Below the pieces are notes generated by a model. The model did no database searches, was not told where the DNA came from, and saw only the letters and a program-made list of their open reading frames with translations. From NCBI GenBank assembly GCA_022841705.1, contig JALHQZ010000005.1, forward strand, positions 33,223 through 97,222: 64,000 nt of DNA. The letters run 5' to 3'. A program made the translations under genes and the position numbers. Positions 4,098 to 49,408 of the stretch are shown piece after piece; position 1 is the first letter of the stretch; each line of letters opens with the position of its first letter. The DNA comes from Pirellulales bacterium. GTDB lineage: Bacteria; Planctomycetota; Planctomycetia; Pirellulales; Lacipirellulaceae.

Positions 4098-4208
4098 AGC
4101 GCGAGGGGGCAGCAGGCTGGAGGCAGAACGCGACCGGGCCGGAAGAATAGCGGGCCGCGCCGCGGGGGGCCAGAGAGAAACGCGGCGCTGGTGCTAGCAG
4201 TCGCCCCT

Positions 4209-31148: not shown

Positions 31149-32879
31149 CTACCGCGGCGCCTTCACCGGCCGCAGCGCTTCGCCATTCTCTTCAACCACC
31201 GGCGACTCCTTCGGCCCCGCGTTGCTCATCAGCGACGCTAAGCTCTCGGGGATATCCACGCCACCGATGTCCTTGAGCACCTGCATCATCGGGGGCAGCG
31301 TGCCGGCCATGCCGTGCAGGAAGTCGGCGGTGCTCGAGCGACCATTCTTGCCGCCGTTTTCCCACACCACCACTTTGTCGAACTTGATGTTGCTGATCGC
31401 CTTGGCGCTCGACTCGGCCAGGTTGTCGAGGTGTTCGAGCATCATCAGTTGGAACGCTTCGCGGGCGCCGCCGCACGCTTCGACGATTTGCTTGAGGCCC
31501 TCGCCCTTCTTCGCCAGAATCTCGTACTGGCCCTTCGCTTCGGCGGCCAGCTTGGCGTAGATGGCGGCCGCTTCGCCCTCGGCTTCCAGGCGCCGCTTTT
31601 GGGCTTCGGCTTCCGCTTCGACGATGATCCGCGCCTTGGCCGCTTTGGCCGGGGCTTCGAACTTGGCCCGCTGTTCCGCTTCGATCCGTTCGGCGTCGGC
31701 GAGCGCCGCCTTGGCCATCGCGATGTTCTGCGCTTCAATCACCGCCGCTTCGGCGGCCCGCTTGCGCGTTTCGCCCTTTTCGTACGCTTCGGCCTTTTGC
31801 ACCAACAGCGTCGCTTGCGACTGGGCTACCTTCGCCTCAGCCACGTTTTCGCCATCCACCGCCGCGGCGTTCGCTTCGGCCACGCTCACGCGCTTCGCCT
31901 TCTCGGCTTCCTTCACCTGCACTTCGCGCTCGAAGGCGGCCTGCTGCTCCGCAACGGTTTGTTCCTTGAGCATTTGCGCCATGCGAATCGCTTGATCGCG
32001 CTCCGCTTCACGCTCGCCGAGGGTTTGTTCCTTGTTGAGCTCCGCCACGCGGACCGCTTGTTCGCGAGTTGCTTCCCGCGTGCCGATTTCGCGGAGCTTG
32101 GTGGCGTTGGCGACGCTGACCGTCTTTTCGCGGTCCGCCTCGGCCACGCGGATTTCCCCCTGTTTCACTTCGGTCGCCACATCGCCGCGGGCTTGTTGAA
32201 TCGCTTGCGAAGCGGCCTTCTGGCCAATCGCATCGATGTAGCCGCTTTCGTCGGTGATGTCGGTAATGTTGACGTTAATCAGCACCAGGCCGATCTTCTT
32301 CAGCTCCGGCTCGACCGAGTTTTGAATGTGCTGCAGGAACGTGTCGCGTTCGCGGTTGATCTCCTCGATCTTCATCGAGGCGATTACCTGCCGCAGTTGC
32401 CCGAAGATAATTTCCTCGGCCTGCTTGCGAATGTCCTGGCTGGAAAGGTCGAGCAAACGAATCGCCGCGTTGCTCATTACATCCGGCGTGGTGCCGATGG
32501 CGACCGTGAACACACTCGGCACATTGACGCGGATGTTCTCGCTCGAGAGGGCTCCACGCAGCGGGATTTCGATTTGAATCGGTTCCAGGCTGAGATAGCG
32601 GTAGTCTTGAATGACAGGGAACACGAACGTCCCTCCGCCATGAACCGTCTTCGCCGTCCGATCTTTGCCGGTCATGGCGCCGAAGACCACCAGCACTTGG
32701 TTGCTGCTGCACCGCTTGTAAACGCTTTTGATGAAGCCGAGGATCACGAACAGCAGCAAGGTGCAGGCTACCGCAACGAGTGTCCATAAAACACCCGAAG
32801 GCAAGTCGCGCAGAGAAAATTCTGCCAGGATTCCGATTGGTGTCGTTGACATTGGTTGTCCTTTGACGATTGAAAGCAA
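31149..32879 (-). CDS. flotillin-like SPFH/band-7 protein (YqiK/FloA-like)
   Basis: 576 aa with an N-terminal TM helix, an SPFH domain, and a long EA-rich coiled coil (AEAEAQKRRLEAEGEAAAIYAKLAAEAKG). Confidence 0.85.
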   Translation of the reverse strand: MLSIVKGQPMSTTPIGILAEFSLRDLPSGVLWTLVAVACTLLLFVILGFIKSVYKRCSSNQVLVVFGAMTGKDRTAKTVHGGGTFVFPVIQDYRYLSLEPIQIEIPLRGALSSENIRVNVPSVFTVAIGTTPDVMSNAAIRLLDLSSQDIRKQAEEIIFGQLRQVIASMKIEEINRERDTFLQHIQNSVEPELKKIGLVLINVNITDITDESGYIDAIGQKAASQAIQQARGDVATEVKQGEIRVAEADREKTVSVANATKLREIGTREATREQAVRVAELNKEQTLGEREAERDQAIRMAQMLKEQTVAEQQAAFEREVQVKEAEKAKRVSVAEANAAAVDGENVAEAKVAQSQATLLVQKAEAYEKGETRKRAAEAAVIEAQNIAMAKAALADAERIEAEQRAKFEAPAKAAKARIIVEAEAEAQKRRLEAEGEAAAIYAKLAAEAKGQYEILAKKGEGLKQIVEACGGAREAFQLMMLEHLDNLAESSAKAISNIKFDKVVVWENGGKNGRSSTADFLHGMAGTLPPMMQVLKDIGGVDIPESLASLMSNAGPKESPVVEENGEALRPVKAPR

Positions 32880-33473
32880 CTAACTTATTGAGGATGTTGC
32901 ACGTACAACACGCACGGTGTCACTTGAAATAATTTCGACAACGACGACATCCTCGCCGGACGGCAGTCGCACATCTTCGTCGGTGATCGCTTGGTACTCG
33001 ACAGTTCTTCCTTGCATGGAAAGTTGCACTTTTCCGCTACCCTGCGACTTGGCTGGTATCGCTACGTAGACTTTCGCTGGCTGATCGAGAGCGAGTTGAA
33101 TGTTCTCATTGCCGGATGACTCGAGTCGGCCCAACTGTTTGAAGAGCCAGTAAACGGTGTAAAGCGCTGCGCCCCCGGCCGCTGTCGCGAAAGTCGCCGC
33201 GGTCGTCGAACTGGCGCCGTGCGATAAGGCAACAAGCCCGATCAATCCGAAGAAGGTCGCAGCCGCGCTCAAGGTGCGAATCGAAAGCAATTCATAAAAC
33301 CAACCAAACGAACTGTCACCATCACTCGATAGGTCGGGTACGTCCAAGTCGTCGCTCGCGAAACCCAACAGCATCAGCCCCAACTGCACCACGAGTATCG
33401 TGCCGCCGATGATCGCCGAATACAGAAATAATGTGCTAAGCATGGGACGGGTGTGTCCAAGGACCTTTCGCAA
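32880..33473 (-). CDS. NfeD-like membrane protein (flotillin partner, YqiJ-like)
   Basis: It lies immediately upstream of and 1 bp apart from the flotillin gene. It has two TM helices and a C-terminal OB-fold-like segment VEYQAITDEDVRLPSGEDVVVVEI. Confidence 0.7.
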   Translation of the reverse strand: MRKVLGHTRPMLSTLFLYSAIIGGTILVVQLGLMLLGFASDDLDVPDLSSDGDSSFGWFYELLSIRTLSAAATFFGLIGLVALSHGASSTTAATFATAAGGAALYTVYWLFKQLGRLESSGNENIQLALDQPAKVYVAIPAKSQGSGKVQLSMQGRTVEYQAITDEDVRLPSGEDVVVVEIISSDTVRVVRATSSIS

Positions 33474-36952: not shown

Positions 36953-37649
36953 GTCGCGATTCGTCTACGGCAAGAACGGCCGCAGAGTGCGGACTTCGGT
37001 GGCGCCGTTGGCGGAGGCCAGTCGCTCAGCGGTCGCAACGCCGCGCTCGGTGTTGCGCGTTTGCAGCGCCACGACGAGGCCCACGATCCAGGCCAGCACA
37101 AAGCCGACCACTTCGCCACACAAAAACAGTTGCCGCCAGGAAACAGTTCGGAGAGACATTGTCTTACTTCGCCAATCACGCCCGCTTGCCTCTGATGCCC
37201 GAATCCTCCGGACATCCATCACAAGCGCAATTACACTGCAAATCTTCACAGTCGGCAAGGTCACTCGCTTTGCGGCGTGCTAGCGTGAGGCAGACTTTCT
37301 AGTCTGCCGGAAGTGGGTCCCAGCGTGGCCCAAAGATGGCTAGCCGAAATTGGCGGCGACGGCGGAATGTTTCGGGCGGCTGCCGCGTCTCAATTGGCAG
37401 GCTAGAAAGCCTGCCCTCCGGAAGGCCCGCAAAATCGGCCCAAAATGTCCGATCGCCAGGCTTTTCGCCGGAGTCAAAATCTATCCCCCCCGATTGCGGC
37501 ATGGTATGATGCAAGGCTACGGCCCAGCCGCTAGTGCCGGCTAAGTTTGCTAGCACTCGCCGCTGGGTTCCCGCCGAATTGTCGCCCTTCCCCGGTGAAG
37601 CGGCTTTCCAAAAATTGTTCCTAAGTGATTGGTTCTGTTCGAGGTCGCA

Positions 37650-38654
37650 ATGGCTAGTAAGAAACGCGTGGCTTTGGTTGGTGGCGGCGGCGGGTTTATC
37701 GGCGGGCATTTGATCGCCAAACTTCGCGATCTTGGGTACGACCAAATTCGCAGTGTCGACATCAAGCCGCTCGACGAGTGGTATCAAGTTCACGACGATG
37801 TCGAAAACATCCAGGCCGACCTGAAGCTCAAAGAAGCCTGCATGGATGCGGTGTCCGGCGTGACCGAAGTCTACAACCTAGCCGCCGACATGGGTGGCAT
37901 GGGGTTCATCGAGAACAACCGCGCACTGTGCATGCTCAGCGTGCTCATCAACACGCATCTCTTGGAAGCGGCCAAGGAAATTGGCGGCGTCGATAAGTTC
38001 TTCTACGCTTCGAGCGCTTGCGTGTACAACGCCGATAAGCAGAAGTGCGAAGACGTGGTCCCCCTCAAAGAAGAAGACGCCTACCCCGCGATGCCGGAAG
38101 ATGGCTACGGTTGGGAAAAGCTCTTTAGCGAACGGATGTGCCGCCACTTCCGCGAAGACTTTGGCCTGACGACCCGCGTGGCCCGGTTCCATAACGTCTA
38201 CGGCCCTTACGGCACGTGGGATGGCGGCCGCGAAAAGGCGCCCGCCGCGGTTTGCCGGAAGGTCATCACCGCCAAGGAGAGCGGCAAGCACGAAATCGAA
38301 ATCTGGGGCGACGGCAAACAAACCCGCAGCTTCATGTACATCGACGATTGTGTGGAAGGCATTCTGAAGATCACCAACTCGAACATCCTCGAGCCGATCA
38401 ATCTGGGCAGCGACGAAGTGGTGACGATCAACGGGTTGGTCGACATCGTCGAAGAGATCGCCGGCATCAAGCTGAAGCGCAACTACAACCTGTCGGCACC
38501 CAAGGGCGTGAACGGCCGCAACAGCGACAACACCAAGATTCTCGATTACTTGGGTTGGGAACCAGGCATCAGCCTCCGCGAAGGAATGGCCAAAACCTAC
38601 GACTGGATTTACGGCGAGTACAGCAAGACGCACGGGTTGGCTGTGGCGCGGTAA
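37650..38654 (+). CDS. NAD-dependent epimerase, GDP-mannose 3,5-epimerase-like
   Basis: GGGGFIGGHL (Rossmann fold) and a long match to the GME family (GYGWEKL, FHNVYGPYGTWDGGREKAPAAVCRK, IWGDGKQTRSF, IDDCVEG). The ORF opens at TTG 37629, but the first ATG is 37650. Confidence 0.75.
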   Translation: MASKKRVALVGGGGGFIGGHLIAKLRDLGYDQIRSVDIKPLDEWYQVHDDVENIQADLKLKEACMDAVSGVTEVYNLAADMGGMGFIENNRALCMLSVLINTHLLEAAKEIGGVDKFFYASSACVYNADKQKCEDVVPLKEEDAYPAMPEDGYGWEKLFSERMCRHFREDFGLTTRVARFHNVYGPYGTWDGGREKAPAAVCRKVITAKESGKHEIEIWGDGKQTRSFMYIDDCVEGILKITNSNILEPINLGSDEVVTINGLVDIVEEIAGIKLKRNYNLSAPKGVNGRNSDNTKILDYLGWEPGISLREGMAKTYDWIYGEYSKTHGLAVAR

Positions 38655-38689
38655 ACGCTTGCTGGAATTCCACCAGACAAACCACGAAA

Positions 38690-38856
38690 GCGAATGTTTC
38701 ACGTGAAACATTCGCTTTTTCATGCGCCGACTTGAAAAATGTTTCACGTGAAACAATTTGGTCACTCCGCTTCCTGACGGGCGCGGCTCGAAAAAATGTT
38801 TCACGTGAAACAATTTCCCCCTGAGGCCCGCCGTGAATTGTTTCACGTGAAACATT
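38690..38856. promoter_or_regulatory. array of four perfect palindromes sharing the core AATGTTTCACGTGAAACA (copy 1 is a 26-bp perfect palindrome GCGAATGTTTCACGTGAAACATTCGC)
   Basis: Copies lie at 38690-38715, 38738-38758, 38795-38815 and 38836-38856, with centre-to-centre spacing 45, 57 and 42 bp. The region is AT-rich in a GC-rich genome and lies 170-330 bp upstream of the ELWxxDGT giant gene. Confidence 0.85.
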
Positions 38857-38863
38857 CCAAACG

Positions 38864-38916
38864 GGGGGTGGCCACAATTTGGGCTTGACAGGGGGTGGCT
38901 ACAATTTGGGGTTGAC
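38864..38916. repeat. tandem 26-27-bp direct repeat GGGGGTGGCYACAATTTGGGSTTGAC x2
   Basis: The copies are 38864-38889 and 38891-38916. Each contains a TTGAC hexamer. The repeat is immediately downstream of the palindrome array and ~105 bp upstream of the 39023 start. Confidence 0.8.
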
Positions 38917-39022
38917 GGGGCTTTTCCGCGGGCGAATGTTTGCCGCCAACGCGGCCGGCGGGTAGACTCAGAAGCTGTGCCTTCTTGACCGCCCGGCGCC
39001 TCCTTTCTCGCCTGCCAGCTCG

Positions 39023-42000
39023 ATGCCCTCTCGCGATCACCACCACCGGAAGCTGCGCTTTGAGACGCTGGAATCCCGCGCGATGTTAGCGGGGGATTTG
39101 GAGTTGGTGAAGGATATTAACCCCAGTCCAACCGGCACAAGTAGTTCGCCGAGTAACCTGGTCGATGTGAGTGGGGTGCTCTTCTTCGTCGTCAATGATG
39201 GGGCCAACGGCGAAGAGTTGTGGAAGAGCGACGGCACCGAAGCCGGCACTGTGATGGTGAAGGACATTTTCCTGGGCGGACCTTCATCGCCGCGGTATTT
39301 GACTAATGTTGGTGGCATCTTGTACTTTTCCGCTAACGACGGAGTGCATGGGAGTGAACTTTGGAAGAGCGATGGCACGGAAGCCGGGACGGTGATGGTG
39401 AAGGACGTGCGCCCCGGTTTCGTAGGTTCCGGCCCGAGCCAACTAATCAATCTTGCAGGGCAACTCGTTTTCGCCGCCAGCGATGGAAGCGTTGGTCAAG
39501 AGTTATGGCGCTCGGACGGCAGCGAGACTGGTACAGTTCTCGTTCGCGATATTCGTGAAGGCTCATCAAGCAGTAATCCGCGTTATTTTGGTGAGTCGGG
39601 AGGCATCGTCTATTTTCGTGCGAACGATGGTCTAACTGGCGAAGAGCTTTGGAGAAGCGATGGAACTAGCGCTGGCACTGGGCTGGTGAAGGATATTCGC
39701 ACCGGCTCGGCAAGCTCCGATCCCCGGCGATTCACGAGTCATCAAGGTGAAGTCTTTTTTGTCGCGAATGATGGGATGACTGGCGCTGAGCTTTGGAGAA
39801 CCGATGGCACGGCTTCAGGAACGATGCTGGTTCGAGATGTGTTCGTTGGGTCTGGCGGCGCAGACATCACGAGTTTGGCTTCAGTAGGAACCACGTTGTT
39901 TTTTGCGGCTCGCGGGAACGGAACTGCTGGCAAAGAACTTTGGAAAACGGATGGCACTTCGACAGGGACTGTGCTCGTTAAAGACATCCAAAGTTTAGGA
40001 TCTTCGTATCCTTCATCTCTGACGAATGTCTCTGGGGTGTTGTTTTTTCGAGCGACTGATAGCTTCGGAGACGCAGGACTCTGGAAAAGCGACGGCACTG
40101 AGTTGGGAACGCAAATTCTCACTCGCACAGATGCAAGCGCGTTCTTGAACTTCGCAGGTACTCTTTACTTCCGAGGCAATGGCGGTCAAGAAATCTGGAA
40201 ATCTGACGGGACAGTAGCAGGAACAATCATTGTCAAAGCGAACGATGCGAGCTACTTCACAACGGCGCCTCAACCTCTGGTAGCGGTAGGTAGTGCGATA
40301 TTCTTCCGTGCCCACGATGATAGTCATGGAGCAGAACTATGGACCAGCGATACCTCAAATGAGGGAACTAAACTGGTGCGAGATATTCGCACGGCGGGAG
40401 GCTCGGTAGGGACGGGCGTCGGTGACGCAAGTGTTCTCGATGGAGTAGTTTACTTTTTTGCAAATGATGGAGTTTCGGGCGGATTGTGGAGCAGTAATGG
40501 TTTCGAGGCAAACACTCTGAAAATTTCCCCTCCGGGAGTAACGGGCATCGGTGAAATCGAGGTCGCCGGCTCGGTGCTCTATTTTGTGGCGACTGTAGGC
40601 CAAGATTCCCAGTTATGGAAATCGGATGGCACCACTGCAGGCACTGTACTTGTCAAGGACATGACCCCCAGTTTCCGTCCGTCTTCAATCGGCGAGCTAA
40701 CAAACGTCGAAGGTGTGCTCTACTTCACGGCCACTGACGAAGTATCTGGGTACGAATTATGGAAGAGCGATGGTACGACCACCGGTACGGTCCGCGTTCG
40801 GGACATCAATCCAGGATCAGCAGGTTCGTCGCCCCGATACCTCACGAACGTCAACGGAACGTTGTACTTCACAGCGAACAATGGCGTAACCGGCAGTGAG
40901 TTGTGGAGAAGTGATGGAACAGAGGCGGGAACTGCGCTCGTGAAGGAGATCGTTCCTGGCGCCAATGTTTTTGGACCAGCGTGGCTGACGAATCTCGGCG
41001 ATGTGCTTTATTTTGTCGCGAATGATGGGACGAGCGGAACTGAGCTGTGGAAAAGCGATGGGACATCGGCAGGGACCAATATCGTGGTCGATATTCGCCC
41101 GGGGACACAGAGCGCTGTCCCCCAGTTCTTGACTGCTTCGGACCAAGGGCTTTTCTTCTCAGCTGATAATGGCTCACTAGGAGAAGAATTGTGGATCACG
41201 GATGGCACGGCCGTCGGGACACGGATGGTCAAAGATTTAACTCCCGGATTCGGCCGGGGGTTCTTGGGAGGATTGCAAAAAATCGGCAACTTCGTCGTCT
41301 TCCGAGGCCGTGATGGCTCAACGGGAGTTGAATTGTGGAAAAGCGATGGGACGGAAGTTGGAACCACTCTCGTCAAGGATATCTGGCAAGGCCCAGGAAG
41401 CTCGCTCAGCGAATCAGTCGGCATCATCAACGGCATTCCAAGTGACTTGACGCATTATGTAATGGCTAATGAACAGCTCTATTTTCGGGCGAGGAGTAGC
41501 GCGACCGGCACAGAGTTGTGGACCAGTGATGGCACCGAAACAGGCACGGTGATTGTAAGGGATTTGGTCGCGGGCTCTGGCGGCTCATACCCAACGGGAC
41601 TCTTCGCTGCTGGGGACCGACTGTTTCTTGCTGCGCTCACGCCAGAGATCGGATCTGAACTCTACTCCCTCACCACCATCACCCCGCCGGCCCTCCCCGG
41701 CGATTACACCCGCAACAACATCGTCGATCAAGCGGACTACGATCTCTGGCGTTCGACCTTTGGATCGGCAGTGAATCTGGCGGCGGATGGGAATGATGAT
41801 GGCATCATCGATGCCGCGGATTACACCGTGTGGCGAGACGCGCTACCGGCGCCGATTGCGGTGGCGACGACGGCCGTTAGTGCAATCGCCCCGCAGCCGA
41901 TTGCACCGTCGCCGGAGCGGCGGGTGGCGGTGAAGACGGCGCCGACCGAAGCGCTCCCCCCGCTGACGCGAGGGGCTCATGAACGGAATTATGACGCGGC

Positions 42001-42157
42001 GCGGGAGGCGGTGTTTGCGGAGCTGGGTGAGGCGGAAACGGTGGCGCCGTCGCGGATGAGTGCGAATCCGAACAATAGCCGGGGAGCTACGCTCCGCGGA
42101 GCGCGGCTGTTGCTAAAACCGCACATTTCTCTGGAAACCGCACTCCGCGGAGCGTAG
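39023..42157 (+). CDS. giant secreted ELWxxDGT-repeat protein with a planctomycete N-terminal motif and C-terminal dockerin-like repeats
   Basis: 1044 aa. The N-terminus RKLRFETLESRAMLAG is a planctomycete secretion-associated motif. About 17 tandem ~50-aa units of G.ELWKSDGTEAGT..VKDI.PG..SS.P..LTNV.G.LYF.A.DG follow (ELWxxDGT repeat, beta-propeller-like). The C-terminus carries two dockerin-like EF-hand repeats (NNIVDQADYDLWRSTFG, DGNDDGIIDAADYTVWRDAL). Confidence 0.8.
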   Translation: MPSRDHHHRKLRFETLESRAMLAGDLELVKDINPSPTGTSSSPSNLVDVSGVLFFVVNDGANGEELWKSDGTEAGTVMVKDIFLGGPSSPRYLTNVGGILYFSANDGVHGSELWKSDGTEAGTVMVKDVRPGFVGSGPSQLINLAGQLVFAASDGSVGQELWRSDGSETGTVLVRDIREGSSSSNPRYFGESGGIVYFRANDGLTGEELWRSDGTSAGTGLVKDIRTGSASSDPRRFTSHQGEVFFVANDGMTGAELWRTDGTASGTMLVRDVFVGSGGADITSLASVGTTLFFAARGNGTAGKELWKTDGTSTGTVLVKDIQSLGSSYPSSLTNVSGVLFFRATDSFGDAGLWKSDGTELGTQILTRTDASAFLNFAGTLYFRGNGGQEIWKSDGTVAGTIIVKANDASYFTTAPQPLVAVGSAIFFRAHDDSHGAELWTSDTSNEGTKLVRDIRTAGGSVGTGVGDASVLDGVVYFFANDGVSGGLWSSNGFEANTLKISPPGVTGIGEIEVAGSVLYFVATVGQDSQLWKSDGTTAGTVLVKDMTPSFRPSSIGELTNVEGVLYFTATDEVSGYELWKSDGTTTGTVRVRDINPGSAGSSPRYLTNVNGTLYFTANNGVTGSELWRSDGTEAGTALVKEIVPGANVFGPAWLTNLGDVLYFVANDGTSGTELWKSDGTSAGTNIVVDIRPGTQSAVPQFLTASDQGLFFSADNGSLGEELWITDGTAVGTRMVKDLTPGFGRGFLGGLQKIGNFVVFRGRDGSTGVELWKSDGTEVGTTLVKDIWQGPGSSLSESVGIINGIPSDLTHYVMANEQLYFRARSSATGTELWTSDGTETGTVIVRDLVAGSGGSYPTGLFAAGDRLFLAALTPEIGSELYSLTTITPPALPGDYTRNNIVDQADYDLWRSTFGSAVNLAADGNDDGIIDAADYTVWRDALPAPIAVATTAVSAIAPQPIAPSPERRVAVKTAPTEALPPLTRGAHERNYDAAREAVFAELGEAETVAPSRMSANPNNSRGATLRGARLLLKPHISLETALRGA

Positions 42158-49239: not shown

Positions 49240-49408
49240 GAAGCTTAACCACAGAGAAGACACAGAGAAAGGAAAAAGAGAAGGAAGGAAAAATTGGCAG
49301 ATGCCTATTCTACCGTTCGATCGCTGGTAAGTTGGAAAGAAACTGCCCAAGGAGACCATCCCTCTCTTTCCCTCTGTCCGTCCTCCGTGATCTCTGTGGT
49401 TAAGCTTC
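49240..49408. repeat. ~170-bp intergenic purine-rich element with an 18-bp perfect terminal inverted repeat (GAAGCTTAACCACAGAGA) extended by degenerate AG-rich/CT-rich arms
   Basis: It lies between the glnE stop (49226) and the bamA start (49537) in a low-GC patch. Confidence 0.8.

What the first reader, a model, noticed from the sequence alone, without database searches (positions are those of the whole stretch)
38690..38916. Four-copy perfect-palindrome array plus tandem direct repeat upstream of the giant ELWxxDGT surface-protein gene
Four copies of AATGTTTCACGTGAAACA(TT) sit in a 167-bp AT-rich stretch of a GC-rich genome. Copy 1 is a perfect 26-bp palindrome, and the other three conserve an additional 2-4 flanking bases. 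Two tandem 26-27-bp direct repeats (GGGGGTGGCYACAATTTGGGSTTGAC) follow, about 105 bp from the 39023 start. Zero-spacer perfect palindromes of this length are characteristic of dimeric transcription-factor operators rather than terminators, because there is no loop or U-tract. Four phased sites suggest cooperative binding or looping control of the 3.1-kb surface-protein gene. The core TCACGTGA does not match the CRP, FNR, Fur or LexA consensus sites I know, so the regulator is unidentified.
Basis: seen in the sequence. Interest (0 to 1): 0.75.

Follow-up and report, generated by a model that had tools for sequence, protein, structure and literature searches.

The report
Four-copy parS chromosome centromere array
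The four palindromes are exact copies of parS, the well-known bacterial "centromere" sequence bound by the chromosome-partitioning protein ParB, so this is most likely an ordinary chromosome-segregation site in a planctomycete genome and not a new gene switch.

Summary
Four perfect copies of TGTTTCACGTGAAACA lie at 38695, 38740, 38797 and 38839, where chance predicts none, and two tandem 27-bp repeats follow at 38861-38914. The interpretation needs replacing, because the 16-mer is letter for letter the canonical chromosomal parS consensus, the site bound by ParB/Spo0J. A metagenome scan for dense arrays of this exact 16-mer returned at least 120 loci, and most carry parA-parB next to the array (median distance 97 bp). 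Of the 16 loci with at least 4 kb on both sides, 15 have parA/parB within 4 kb. The array is therefore best read as a ParB loading site for chromosome partitioning, not an operator of the ELWxxDGT surface-protein gene. Three details are unusual. No parA or parB lies anywhere in the 64-kb window. Copy 1 sits inside a 32-bp perfect palindrome followed by T5, which looks like the intrinsic terminator of the upstream epimerase gene. The region is rearranged relative to five relatives, none of which has parS at the corresponding miaB locus. The tandem 27-bp repeat remains unexplained. This is a new member of a known kind, of low to moderate interest. Its main use is as a centromere landmark in planctomycetes, whose chromosome segregation I found no study of.

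The parts
38695..38710 (.). parS copy 1 (TGTTTCACGTGAAACA), the centre of a 32-bp perfect palindrome
   Evidence: Exact match. Identical to the published parS consensus.
38740..38755 (.). parS copy 2
   Evidence: Exact match. Its 25-mer AAAAATGTTTCACGTGAAACAATTT is identical to that of copy 3.
38797..38812 (.). parS copy 3
   Evidence: Exact match.
38839..38854 (.). parS copy 4, with flanks that are the reverse complement of those of copies 2 and 3
   Evidence: Exact match. Inverted-repeat pairs I2 and I3.
38687..38720 (+). A 32-bp perfect palindrome (38687-38718) running into a T5 tract (38716-38720). It is a likely intrinsic terminator of the upstream epimerase gene and overlaps parS copy 1.
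   Evidence: RNA hairpin of -19.9 kcal/mol, z = -5.7, with 0 of 200 shuffles folding as well. The palindrome begins 33 nt after the epimerase stop codon at 38654. The terminator scan also flagged it on the minus strand.
38861..38914 (+). Two tandem 27-bp direct repeats (ACGGGGGGTGGCCACAATTTGGGCTTG and ACAGGGGGTGGCTACAATTTGGGGTTG). Function unknown, and membership in the parS element is not shown.
   Evidence: unique in the window. They contain TTGAC(A/G) and (C/T)ACAAT hexamers at a non-sigma-70 spacing of 9 nt, and the promoter scan found no sigma-70-like site.
37629..38654 (+). Upstream flanking gene, an NAD-dependent sugar epimerase/dehydratase. The start codon is uncertain.
   Evidence: Pfam Epimerase 1.3e-40; NCBIfam.
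39023..42157 (+). Downstream flanking gene, an ELWxxDGT-repeat protein of 1044 aa with a planctomycete extracellular N-terminal motif
   Evidence: TIGR04534 at 901 bits with 16 repeats; PF07595 at residues 9-25.

Best explanation
The four palindromes are chromosomal parS sites, the centromere-like loading sites of the ParABS partition system. By homology with characterised systems, a ParB dimer would recognise each 16-bp palindrome through its helix-turn-helix domains. ParB would then bind CTP, close into a sliding clamp and spread over several kilobases of flanking DNA. Four sites within 160 bp would give a high local loading rate and build one partition complex. ParA would move that complex, and it would load SMC condensin. 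Copy 1 additionally sits in a 32-bp palindrome followed by T5, which probably terminates the upstream epimerase transcript. Shown here: the sequence identity to parS, the statistical non-randomness, the association of such arrays with parAB elsewhere, and the hairpin energetics. Inferred: ParB binding in this organism, spreading, and the segregation role.
For: (1) All four copies match the perfect consensus TGTTTCACGTGAAACA, with 0 expected by chance. (2) Published chromosomal parS sites are the same sequence: B. subtilis TGTTNCACGTGAAACA, Hyphomonas neptunium TGTTTCACGTGAAACA, Caulobacter and Burkholderia chrI variants (PMC7022226 Table 1), and S. pneumoniae tGTTTCACGtGAAACa (PMC4488948). (3) A metagenome scan for at least 3 perfect copies separated by 20-50 nt stopped at its 120-locus limit. 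Of these loci, 82 encode a Soj/ParA homologue and 69 a Spo0J/ParB homologue in the DNA held. The median distance from array to gene is 97 bp, and 15 of the 16 loci with at least 4 kb on both sides have parA/parB within 4 kb. Pfam confirmed that sampled hits are ParB_N + HTH_ParB (+ ParB_C) proteins and ParA-type ATPases. (4) Two arrays without adjacent parAB lie next to gidA/mnmE, which are classic origin-region genes (L121 and L179; neighbourhood described in PMC10653881). (5) The spacings here (42-57 bp) fall inside the range seen in those arrays (22-66 bp). (6) The motif is not dispersed. The rest of the 64-kb window has no further copy within 2 mismatches of the perfect 16-mer (one 3-mismatch site at 32895). 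The 1.31 Mb of DNA around epimerase homologues from other genomes has none within 1 mismatch and one 2-mismatch site. (7) The window is chromosomal planctomycete DNA with housekeeping genes (aspS, lysS, purL, bamA, glnE, miaB, pfk) and planctomycete-specific families. (8) The array is reproduced in an independent assembly.
Against: No parA or parB lies in the 64-kb window. This rests on Pfam scans of the longest non-overlapping ORFs of at least 200 aa and on tblastn of the whole window with Spo0J and Soj at E<=1e-5. In the metagenome sample only 1 of the 16 well-flanked arrays was similarly isolated. I could not check whether this genome encodes ParB. Proximity to the origin is not shown: there is no dnaA and no intergenic DnaA-box cluster, and GC skew within the window is noisy. 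Five relatives at about 77-80% MiaB identity have no parS within 10 kb of miaB, although gene order there also differs. Phages also carry such arrays, so a parS array is not by itself proof of a host centromere.
Confidence: 0.9

Rival explanations
1. The four palindromes are operators of an unidentified dimeric transcription factor that cooperatively controls the downstream ELWxxDGT surface-protein gene.
For: The sites lie 169-328 bp upstream of the 39023 start codon, in the only intergenic region before that gene. ParB-family proteins can affect transcription. ParB spreading from one parS represses comCDE in S. pneumoniae (PMC4488948), and VirB is a regulator of the ParB family (PMC10653881).
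Against: The sequence is the exact parS consensus. Arrays of it lie next to parAB in other genomes, not next to ELWxxDGT genes. No other gene in the window carries the motif upstream. The spacing is not helically phased. The promoter scan found no sigma-70-like promoter overlapping the sites. In S. pneumoniae, genes near parS were generally unaffected by ParB.
Confidence: 0.05
2. The palindromes act at the RNA level only, as transcription terminators or attenuators between the epimerase and ELWxxDGT genes, and their match to parS is coincidental.
For: Copy 1 forms a 15-bp hairpin (-19.9 kcal/mol, z = -5.7) that runs into a T5 tract, with the palindrome beginning 33 nt after the epimerase stop codon. 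The terminator scan flags it.
Against: Copies 2-4 fold weakly (-6.8 to -12 kcal/mol, z = -1.3 to -1.7) and have no U-tract. Four independent exact matches to a 16-mer consensus cannot be coincidence (0 expected). Rfam gave only sub-threshold hits. The terminator role of copy 1 is compatible with the parS explanation and does not compete with it.
Confidence: 0.03
3. The array is the partition site of an integrated or degraded mobile element (plasmid or phage), or the target of a ParB paralogue, and is not the chromosome's own centromere.
For: Sixty-one viral contigs carry pairs or arrays of the identical 16-mer. Examples are a phi29-like podovirus and an HK97-like phage. The block carrying the array is rearranged relative to five relatives, and the ELWxxDGT gene has lower G+C (56%) than its surroundings. 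ParABS genes are common on planctomycete plasmids (PMC13315336).
Against: No phage, plasmid, integrase or transposase gene flanks the array. The neighbours are fatty-acid synthesis, sugar epimerase, surface protein and miaB genes. No parA, parB or rep gene lies within 25-38 kb.
Confidence: 0.05

Closest known systems
Chromosomal parS sites of the ParABS system (B. subtilis Spo0J/ParB sites; consensus tGTTNCACGTGAAACa)
   Same: The 16-bp palindrome is identical in all four copies. It is rare in the DNA examined and intergenic.
   Different: There are four perfect copies within 160 bp, whereas B. subtilis has 10 sites, 8 in the ori domain (PMC7022226 Table 1). No parAB lies within the 64-kb window. 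ParB binding is untested in any planctomycete as far as the searched library shows.
Dense parS arrays immediately upstream of parA-parB, as found here in metagenomic contigs. Multi-site clusters are also reported in Myxococcus xanthus (22 sites) and Streptomyces coelicolor (21 sites) (PMC7022226 Table 1).
   Same: Several perfect copies lie 22-66 bp apart in an intergenic stretch. The spacings here (45, 57, 42 bp) fall within that range.
   Different: Those arrays sit a median of 97 bp from parA or parB. This one sits between a sugar epimerase gene and an ELWxxDGT surface-protein gene. Only 1 of the 16 well-flanked metagenomic arrays (L199, between nusA and a Mur ligase gene) is comparably isolated.
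F-plasmid sopC centromere: 12 tandem 43-bp repeats, each holding a 16-bp inverted repeat bound by SopB (from my own knowledge, not tested here)
   Same: The architecture matches: a short array of 16-bp palindromes spaced about 40-60 bp apart serves as a ParB-family loading platform.
   Different: The palindrome sequence differs, and sopC is a plasmid centromere. In sopC the repeat units are regular, whereas here the spacers are unrelated and of unequal length.
parS(-1.6 deg)-comCDE in Streptococcus pneumoniae (PMC4488948)
   Same: A canonical parS lies close to a non-partition gene over which ParB can spread for more than 5 kb. This is the best precedent for any regulatory side effect on the ELWxxDGT gene.
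   Different: That effect was an exception tied to an autocatalytic circuit, and other genes near parS were unaffected. No expression data exist here.
parS sites in phage phi29, bound by host Spo0J to carry the phage genome into the spore (from my own knowledge: Meijer et al. 2005, EMBO J)
   Same: Arrays of the identical 16-mer occur without a cognate parB gene nearby. L225 is a phi29-like contig with four sites at 26-bp spacing.
   Different: That is a phage genome. The window is chromosomal, with housekeeping genes and no phage genes.

Membership tests
Chromosomal parS (ParABS centromere) | A 16-bp palindrome matching the consensus tGTTNCACGTGAAACa | tested here: met
   Four perfect matches. 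Consensus taken from PMC7022226 Table 1 and PMC4488948.
Chromosomal parS (ParABS centromere) | Few copies per genome, not a dispersed repeat | tested here: inconclusive
   The remaining 64 kb has no other copy within 2 mismatches of the perfect 16-mer, and 1.31 Mb of loci from other genomes has none within 1 mismatch. The rest of this genome could not be read.
Chromosomal parS (ParABS centromere) | The same genome encodes a ParB (ParB_N + HTH_ParB) and usually a ParA | not testable with these tools
   None is present in the 64-kb window (Pfam; tblastn).
Chromosomal parS (ParABS centromere) | Located in the origin-proximal domain of the chromosome | tested here: inconclusive
   The window has no dnaA, dnaN, gidA or mnmE. 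DnaA-box-like hits are mostly coding-repeat artefacts. GC skew is noisy, with a shallow cumulative minimum near 32-34 kb.
Chromosomal parS (ParABS centromere) | The exact motif is associated with parAB operons in other genomes | tested here: met
   Of the 120 array loci, 82 have ParA and 69 have ParB. Of the 16 well-flanked arrays, 15 have parA or parB within 4 kb. Pfam confirmed the proteins.
Chromosomal parS (ParABS centromere) | Specific ParB binding and CTP-dependent spreading from the site | not testable with these tools
   This needs ChIP-seq or in vitro binding.
Transcription-factor operator of the downstream gene | Sites overlap or adjoin the promoter of the regulated gene | tested here: inconclusive
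   The sites lie 169-328 bp upstream of the ATG. The scan found no sigma-70-type promoter in 38400-39300. Planctomycete promoters are poorly defined, and the transcription start is unknown.
Transcription-factor operator of the downstream gene | The motif recurs upstream of other genes (a regulon) or upstream of orthologues | tested here: not met
   No other copy lies in the window. The ELWxxDGT gene has no close orthologue (at most 48-50% identity, repeat-driven). Elsewhere the motif accompanies parAB, not surface-protein genes.
Rho-independent (intrinsic) terminator | A stable hairpin immediately followed by a U-tract, downstream of a stop codon | tested here: met
   Met for copy 1 only: -19.9 kcal/mol, z = -5.7, T5 at 38716-38720, palindrome beginning 33 nt after the stop codon. 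Copies 2-4 do not meet it (z = -1.3 to -1.7, no U-tract).

The most novel reading that the evidence does not exclude
In this FtsZ-less, budding-type planctomycete lineage the chromosome's centromere has been uncoupled from parAB and moved into a rearranged block directly upstream of a giant secreted ELWxxDGT protein gene. One parS copy has fused with the terminator of the upstream gene. ParB loading and spreading from the array would then couple expression of the surface protein, or insulation of the two transcription units, to the chromosome-segregation cycle. The unexplained 27-bp tandem repeat would be part of that control region.
Probability: 0.07. Interest if true: 0.55.

Novelty: new member of a known kind. 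Interest (0 to 1): 0.2.

Why it matters
The finding reclassifies an apparently novel operator array as the best-known bacterial centromere sequence, which removes a false lead. Its positive value is modest but real. I found no study of chromosome segregation in Planctomycetota, which lack FtsZ and often divide by budding. Five full-text searches combining parS or ParB terms with planctomycete terms returned no study of chromosomal parS in the phylum. A compact four-site array gives a precise landmark for ParB ChIP or fluorescent tagging and for locating the origin-proximal domain in this lineage. The overlap of one parS with a terminator hairpin is a small example of a dual-use sequence. The absence of parAB nearby is worth checking against the complete genome.

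Tried and rejected
(1) Synteny through the upstream epimerase. Eighty genome loci at 68-83% identity shared none of the window's real neighbouring genes (only a short match from a spurious ORF that overlaps the epimerase gene) and contained no parS. The enzyme is too conserved across phyla to mark orthologous regions, so the single genome-contig scan gave only a negative control.
(2) Synteny through miaB. Relatives at 77-80% identity (L082, L083, L266, L267/L268) keep fmt-small ORF-miaB-glnE but lack the epimerase-parS-ELWxxDGT block, parS and the 27-bp repeat. This says nothing about conservation of the array itself.
(3) Orthologues of the ELWxxDGT protein. There are none closer than about 48-50% identity, and the similarity is repeat-driven.
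(4) Exact-protein look-ups for the epimerase and ELWxxDGT proteins failed. The only public copy found is a frameshifted older assembly.
(5) Origin evidence. DnaA-box and GC-skew scans were inconclusive.
(6) Rfam gave only sub-threshold chance hits.
(7) The sigma-70 promoter scan of the region found nothing. By eye, TTGCCG-17 nt-TAGACT (38940-38968) is a weak candidate at 8 of 12 matches.
(8) The literature searches found no study of planctomycete chromosomal ParB or parS. Livny et al. 2007 is not held, and the assembly accession appears in no paper.
(9) I ran no further search on guessing a planctomycete ParB, because the tool cannot tie a hit to this genome.
They were validated only indirectly, by strong adjacent hits and by Pfam confirmation of three ParB and three ParA hits.

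Full report
OBSERVATION. The sequence is as described. The 16-mer TGTTTCACGTGAAACA occurs four times, at 38695, 38740, 38797 and 38839. Start-to-start spacing is 45, 57 and 42 bp. Copy 1 is the centre of a perfect 32-bp palindrome (38687-38718), longer than the 26 bp reported. Copies 2 and 3 share an identical 25-mer, and copy 4 has the same flanks in reverse complement. Two tandem 27-bp repeats follow at 38861-38914. They are 89% identical and unique in the window. G+C drops to 44-52% here, against about 60% for the window. An independent, indel-rich public assembly of the same organism (GCA_001464525.1, LNDY01000380.1) carries the same four sites and both repeats, so this is not an assembly artefact.

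CONTEXT. The array lies in the 368-bp spacer between two + strand genes. Upstream is an NAD-dependent sugar epimerase/dehydratase (37629-38654). Downstream is a 1044-aa ELWxxDGT-repeat protein (39023-42157; TIGR04534 at 901 bits with 16 repeats; planctomycete extracellular N-terminal motif). The window is chromosomal planctomycete DNA. It holds DUF1559, DUF1573, DUF1598 and Planc_extracel families together with aspS, lysS, purL, bamA, glnE, miaB and pfk. MiaB's closest named relatives are Pirellulales and Lacipirellulaceae MAGs.

WHAT IT IS. TGTTTCACGTGAAACA is letter for letter the canonical chromosomal parS site, the centromere-like sequence bound by ParB/Spo0J. Table 1 of Kawalek et al. 2020 (PMC7022226) lists B. 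subtilis TGTTNCACGTGAAACA, Hyphomonas neptunium TGTTTCACGTGAAACA, and near-identical consensus sequences for Caulobacter and Burkholderia chromosome I. Attaiech et al. 2015 (PMC4488948) give tGTTTCACGtGAAACa for S. pneumoniae.

I tested the identification empirically instead of relying on recall. A metagenome scan for at least three perfect copies separated by 20-50 nt hit its 120-locus limit. In the DNA held for those loci, tblastn found a Soj/ParA homologue in 82 and a Spo0J/ParB homologue in 69. The median distance from the array to the nearest such gene is 97 bp. Of the 16 loci with at least 4 kb on both sides of the array, 15 have parA or parB within 4 kb. Pfam confirmed the sampled hits as ParB_N + HTH_ParB (+ ParB_C) proteins and ParA-type ATPases. 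Two arrays without adjacent parAB sit beside gidA or mnmE. This is the classic neighbourhood of chromosomal parB (PMC10653881). Spacings in these arrays range from 22 to 66 bp, so 42-57 bp is ordinary. The motif is also not a dispersed repeat in the DNA I could read. The other 64 kb of the window holds only one 3-mismatch site, at 32895. The 1.31 Mb around epimerase homologues from other genomes holds no site within 1 mismatch and one 2-mismatch site.

HOW IT MOST LIKELY WORKS (inferred by homology). ParB dimers would nucleate on each palindrome. After binding CTP they would close into clamps and slide onto neighbouring DNA. In S. pneumoniae, spreading of more than 5 kb is documented. Four sites within 160 bp would concentrate loading into one partition complex, which ParA segregates and which recruits SMC. 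Confidence that these are functional ParB sites is about 0.9.

WHAT IS UNUSUAL.
(a) No parA or parB lies anywhere in the window, that is within 38 kb to the left or 25 kb to the right (Pfam on the longest non-overlapping ORFs of at least 200 aa; tblastn of the whole window). In the metagenome sample only one well-flanked array (L199, between nusA and a Mur ligase gene) was similarly isolated. That sample is dominated by a few clades, so the 1-in-16 figure is only indicative.
(b) Copy 1 doubles as a likely intrinsic terminator. The RNA hairpin has -19.9 kcal/mol and z = -5.7, with 0 of 200 shuffles folding as well. A core GCGAAUGUUUCA/UGAAACAUUCGC stem is followed by U5, and the palindrome begins 33 nt after the epimerase stop codon. 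Copies 2-4 fold no better than shuffled sequence (z = -1.3 to -1.7).
(c) The block is rearranged. Five relatives at 77-80% MiaB identity conserve fmt-small ORF (56-63 aa)-miaB-glnE. The window instead has epimerase-parS-ELWxxDGT-small ORF-miaB-DUF4832-glnE. None of the relatives has parS or the 27-bp repeat within 10 kb of miaB. Because gene order differs, this says nothing about conservation of the array itself.

The inference of a dimeric DNA-binding protein site is right. The proposed function, an operator of the surface-protein gene with an unknown regulator, is not supported.
- The motif accompanies parAB elsewhere and not ELWxxDGT genes.
- It is absent upstream of every other gene in the window.
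- The spacings equal 4.3, 5.4 and 4.0 helical turns and are not phased.
- The scan found no sigma-70-like promoter overlapping the sites.
- In S. pneumoniae, ParB at parS left neighbouring transcription generally unchanged, with comCDE the exception.
A mild side effect of ParB spreading on the adjacent gene cannot be excluded. I give the pure-operator model about 0.05.

OTHER RIVALS. An RNA-only (terminator) reading fails for copies 2-4, and Rfam gives nothing above threshold. A relic of a mobile element is conceivable, because phages carry the same arrays and the block is rearranged. However, no phage, plasmid, integrase or rep gene is nearby.

UNEXPLAINED. The tandem 27-bp repeat (38861-38914) carries TTGAC(A/G) and (C/T)ACAAT hexamers, but 9 nt apart, which does not fit a sigma-70 promoter. 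It is unique in the window and absent from the relatives' miaB loci. It may belong to the promoter region of the ELWxxDGT gene or bind another factor. I could not test either idea.

LIMITS. I could not read the rest of the genome. The presence of ParB, the total number of parS sites and the distance to oriC are therefore untested. GC skew and DnaA-box scans within the window are inconclusive. Five full-text searches combining parS or ParB terms with planctomycete terms found no study of chromosomal parS or ParB in planctomycetes. Livny et al. 2007, which surveyed parS across phyla, is not held.

VERDICT. This is a real feature with a well-known identity: a compact four-site parS array. It is a new member of a known kind. 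Interest is about 0.2. The array is useful as a centromere landmark for a lineage whose chromosome segregation has not been studied in the literature I could search. It has two minor curiosities, the absence of parAB nearby and the overlap of one parS with a terminator.

Noticed in passing
L225:5982-6075 (IMGVR_UViG_3300045988_104522); also L222, L262, L207, L236, L244: Phage contigs carry tight arrays of the identical host-type parS 16-mer with no ParB gene detected. L225 is a phi29-like podovirus (DNA polymerase B, Gp16 packaging ATPase, lysins) with four sites at 26-bp spacing just after gp16. This fits the known use of host Spo0J by phi29 for spore entrapment (from my own knowledge, Meijer et al. 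2005)..
   Followed up: partly
L215:1806-4196 and about 12 near-identical human-microbiome viral contigs (L205, L208, L209, L217, L224, L237, L238, L242, L250, L251, L253): An HK97-like phage or prophage (53% G+C) has four perfect parS sites inside or around its portal-protease-capsid module. Sites at 1806, 1848 and 2085 lie at the end of the portal gene, and one at 4181 lies after the capsid gene. No ParB or ParA was detected by tblastn. Why structural genes would carry host centromere sites is unexplained..
   Followed up: partly
window:38932-38941: GCGAATGTTT repeats the left flank plus part of the half-site of parS copy 1 (GCGAATGTTTCAC), 80 bp upstream of the ELWxxDGT start codon. It may be a degenerate half-parS or a duplication remnant (seen).
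   Followed up: no
window:32895-32910: TGTTGCACGTACAACA is a near-palindromic parS-like sequence. It has 2 mismatches to TGTTNCACGTGAAACA and 3 to the perfect site, and lies 16 bp upstream of the start of the Band 7/SPFH gene (31149-32879, minus strand). It is probably chance but is the only other parS-like site in the window.
   Followed up: no
window:40902-41342: Four DnaA-box-like matches (TTNTCCACA) lie exactly 144 bp apart on the minus strand. They are not origin elements. They reflect the 48-aa ELWxxDGT coding repeats.
   Followed up: yes
window:42258-42434 (+): A small ORF of 58 aa lies immediately upstream of miaB and is conserved in five Pirellulales relatives (56-63 aa; 36-48% identity to the window's copy; invariant D8, L11, A15, A19, L26, M27, R30, R31). 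It has a hydrophobic N-terminal half and a basic tail, which suggests a small membrane protein. It marks the synteny breakpoint to the right of the parS block.
   Followed up: partly
L081 (GCA_001464525.1, LNDY01000380.1) versus window:32380-42127: The older public assembly of the same organism has 99 gapped positions over about 9.7 kb relative to the window (98.9% identity), then 11.8 kb of perfect identity. The indels split the epimerase and ELWxxDGT genes into two called genes each, so exact-protein look-ups for them fail.
   Followed up: yes
window:49245-49253 and 49395-49403: Two TTAACCACA DnaA-box-like 9-mers in inverted orientation lie in the 205-bp spacer between glnE and bamA. Two sites are too few to call an origin.
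   Followed up: no
L199:5815-5964: A low-G+C (38%) metagenomic contig has four perfect parS sites at 40, 51 and 43-bp spacing between a nusA-like gene and a Mur ligase gene, with no parAB within 5.8 kb on the left or about 9 kb on the right. It is the only other isolated array among the 16 well-flanked loci and the closest architectural twin of the window's array.
   Followed up: partly
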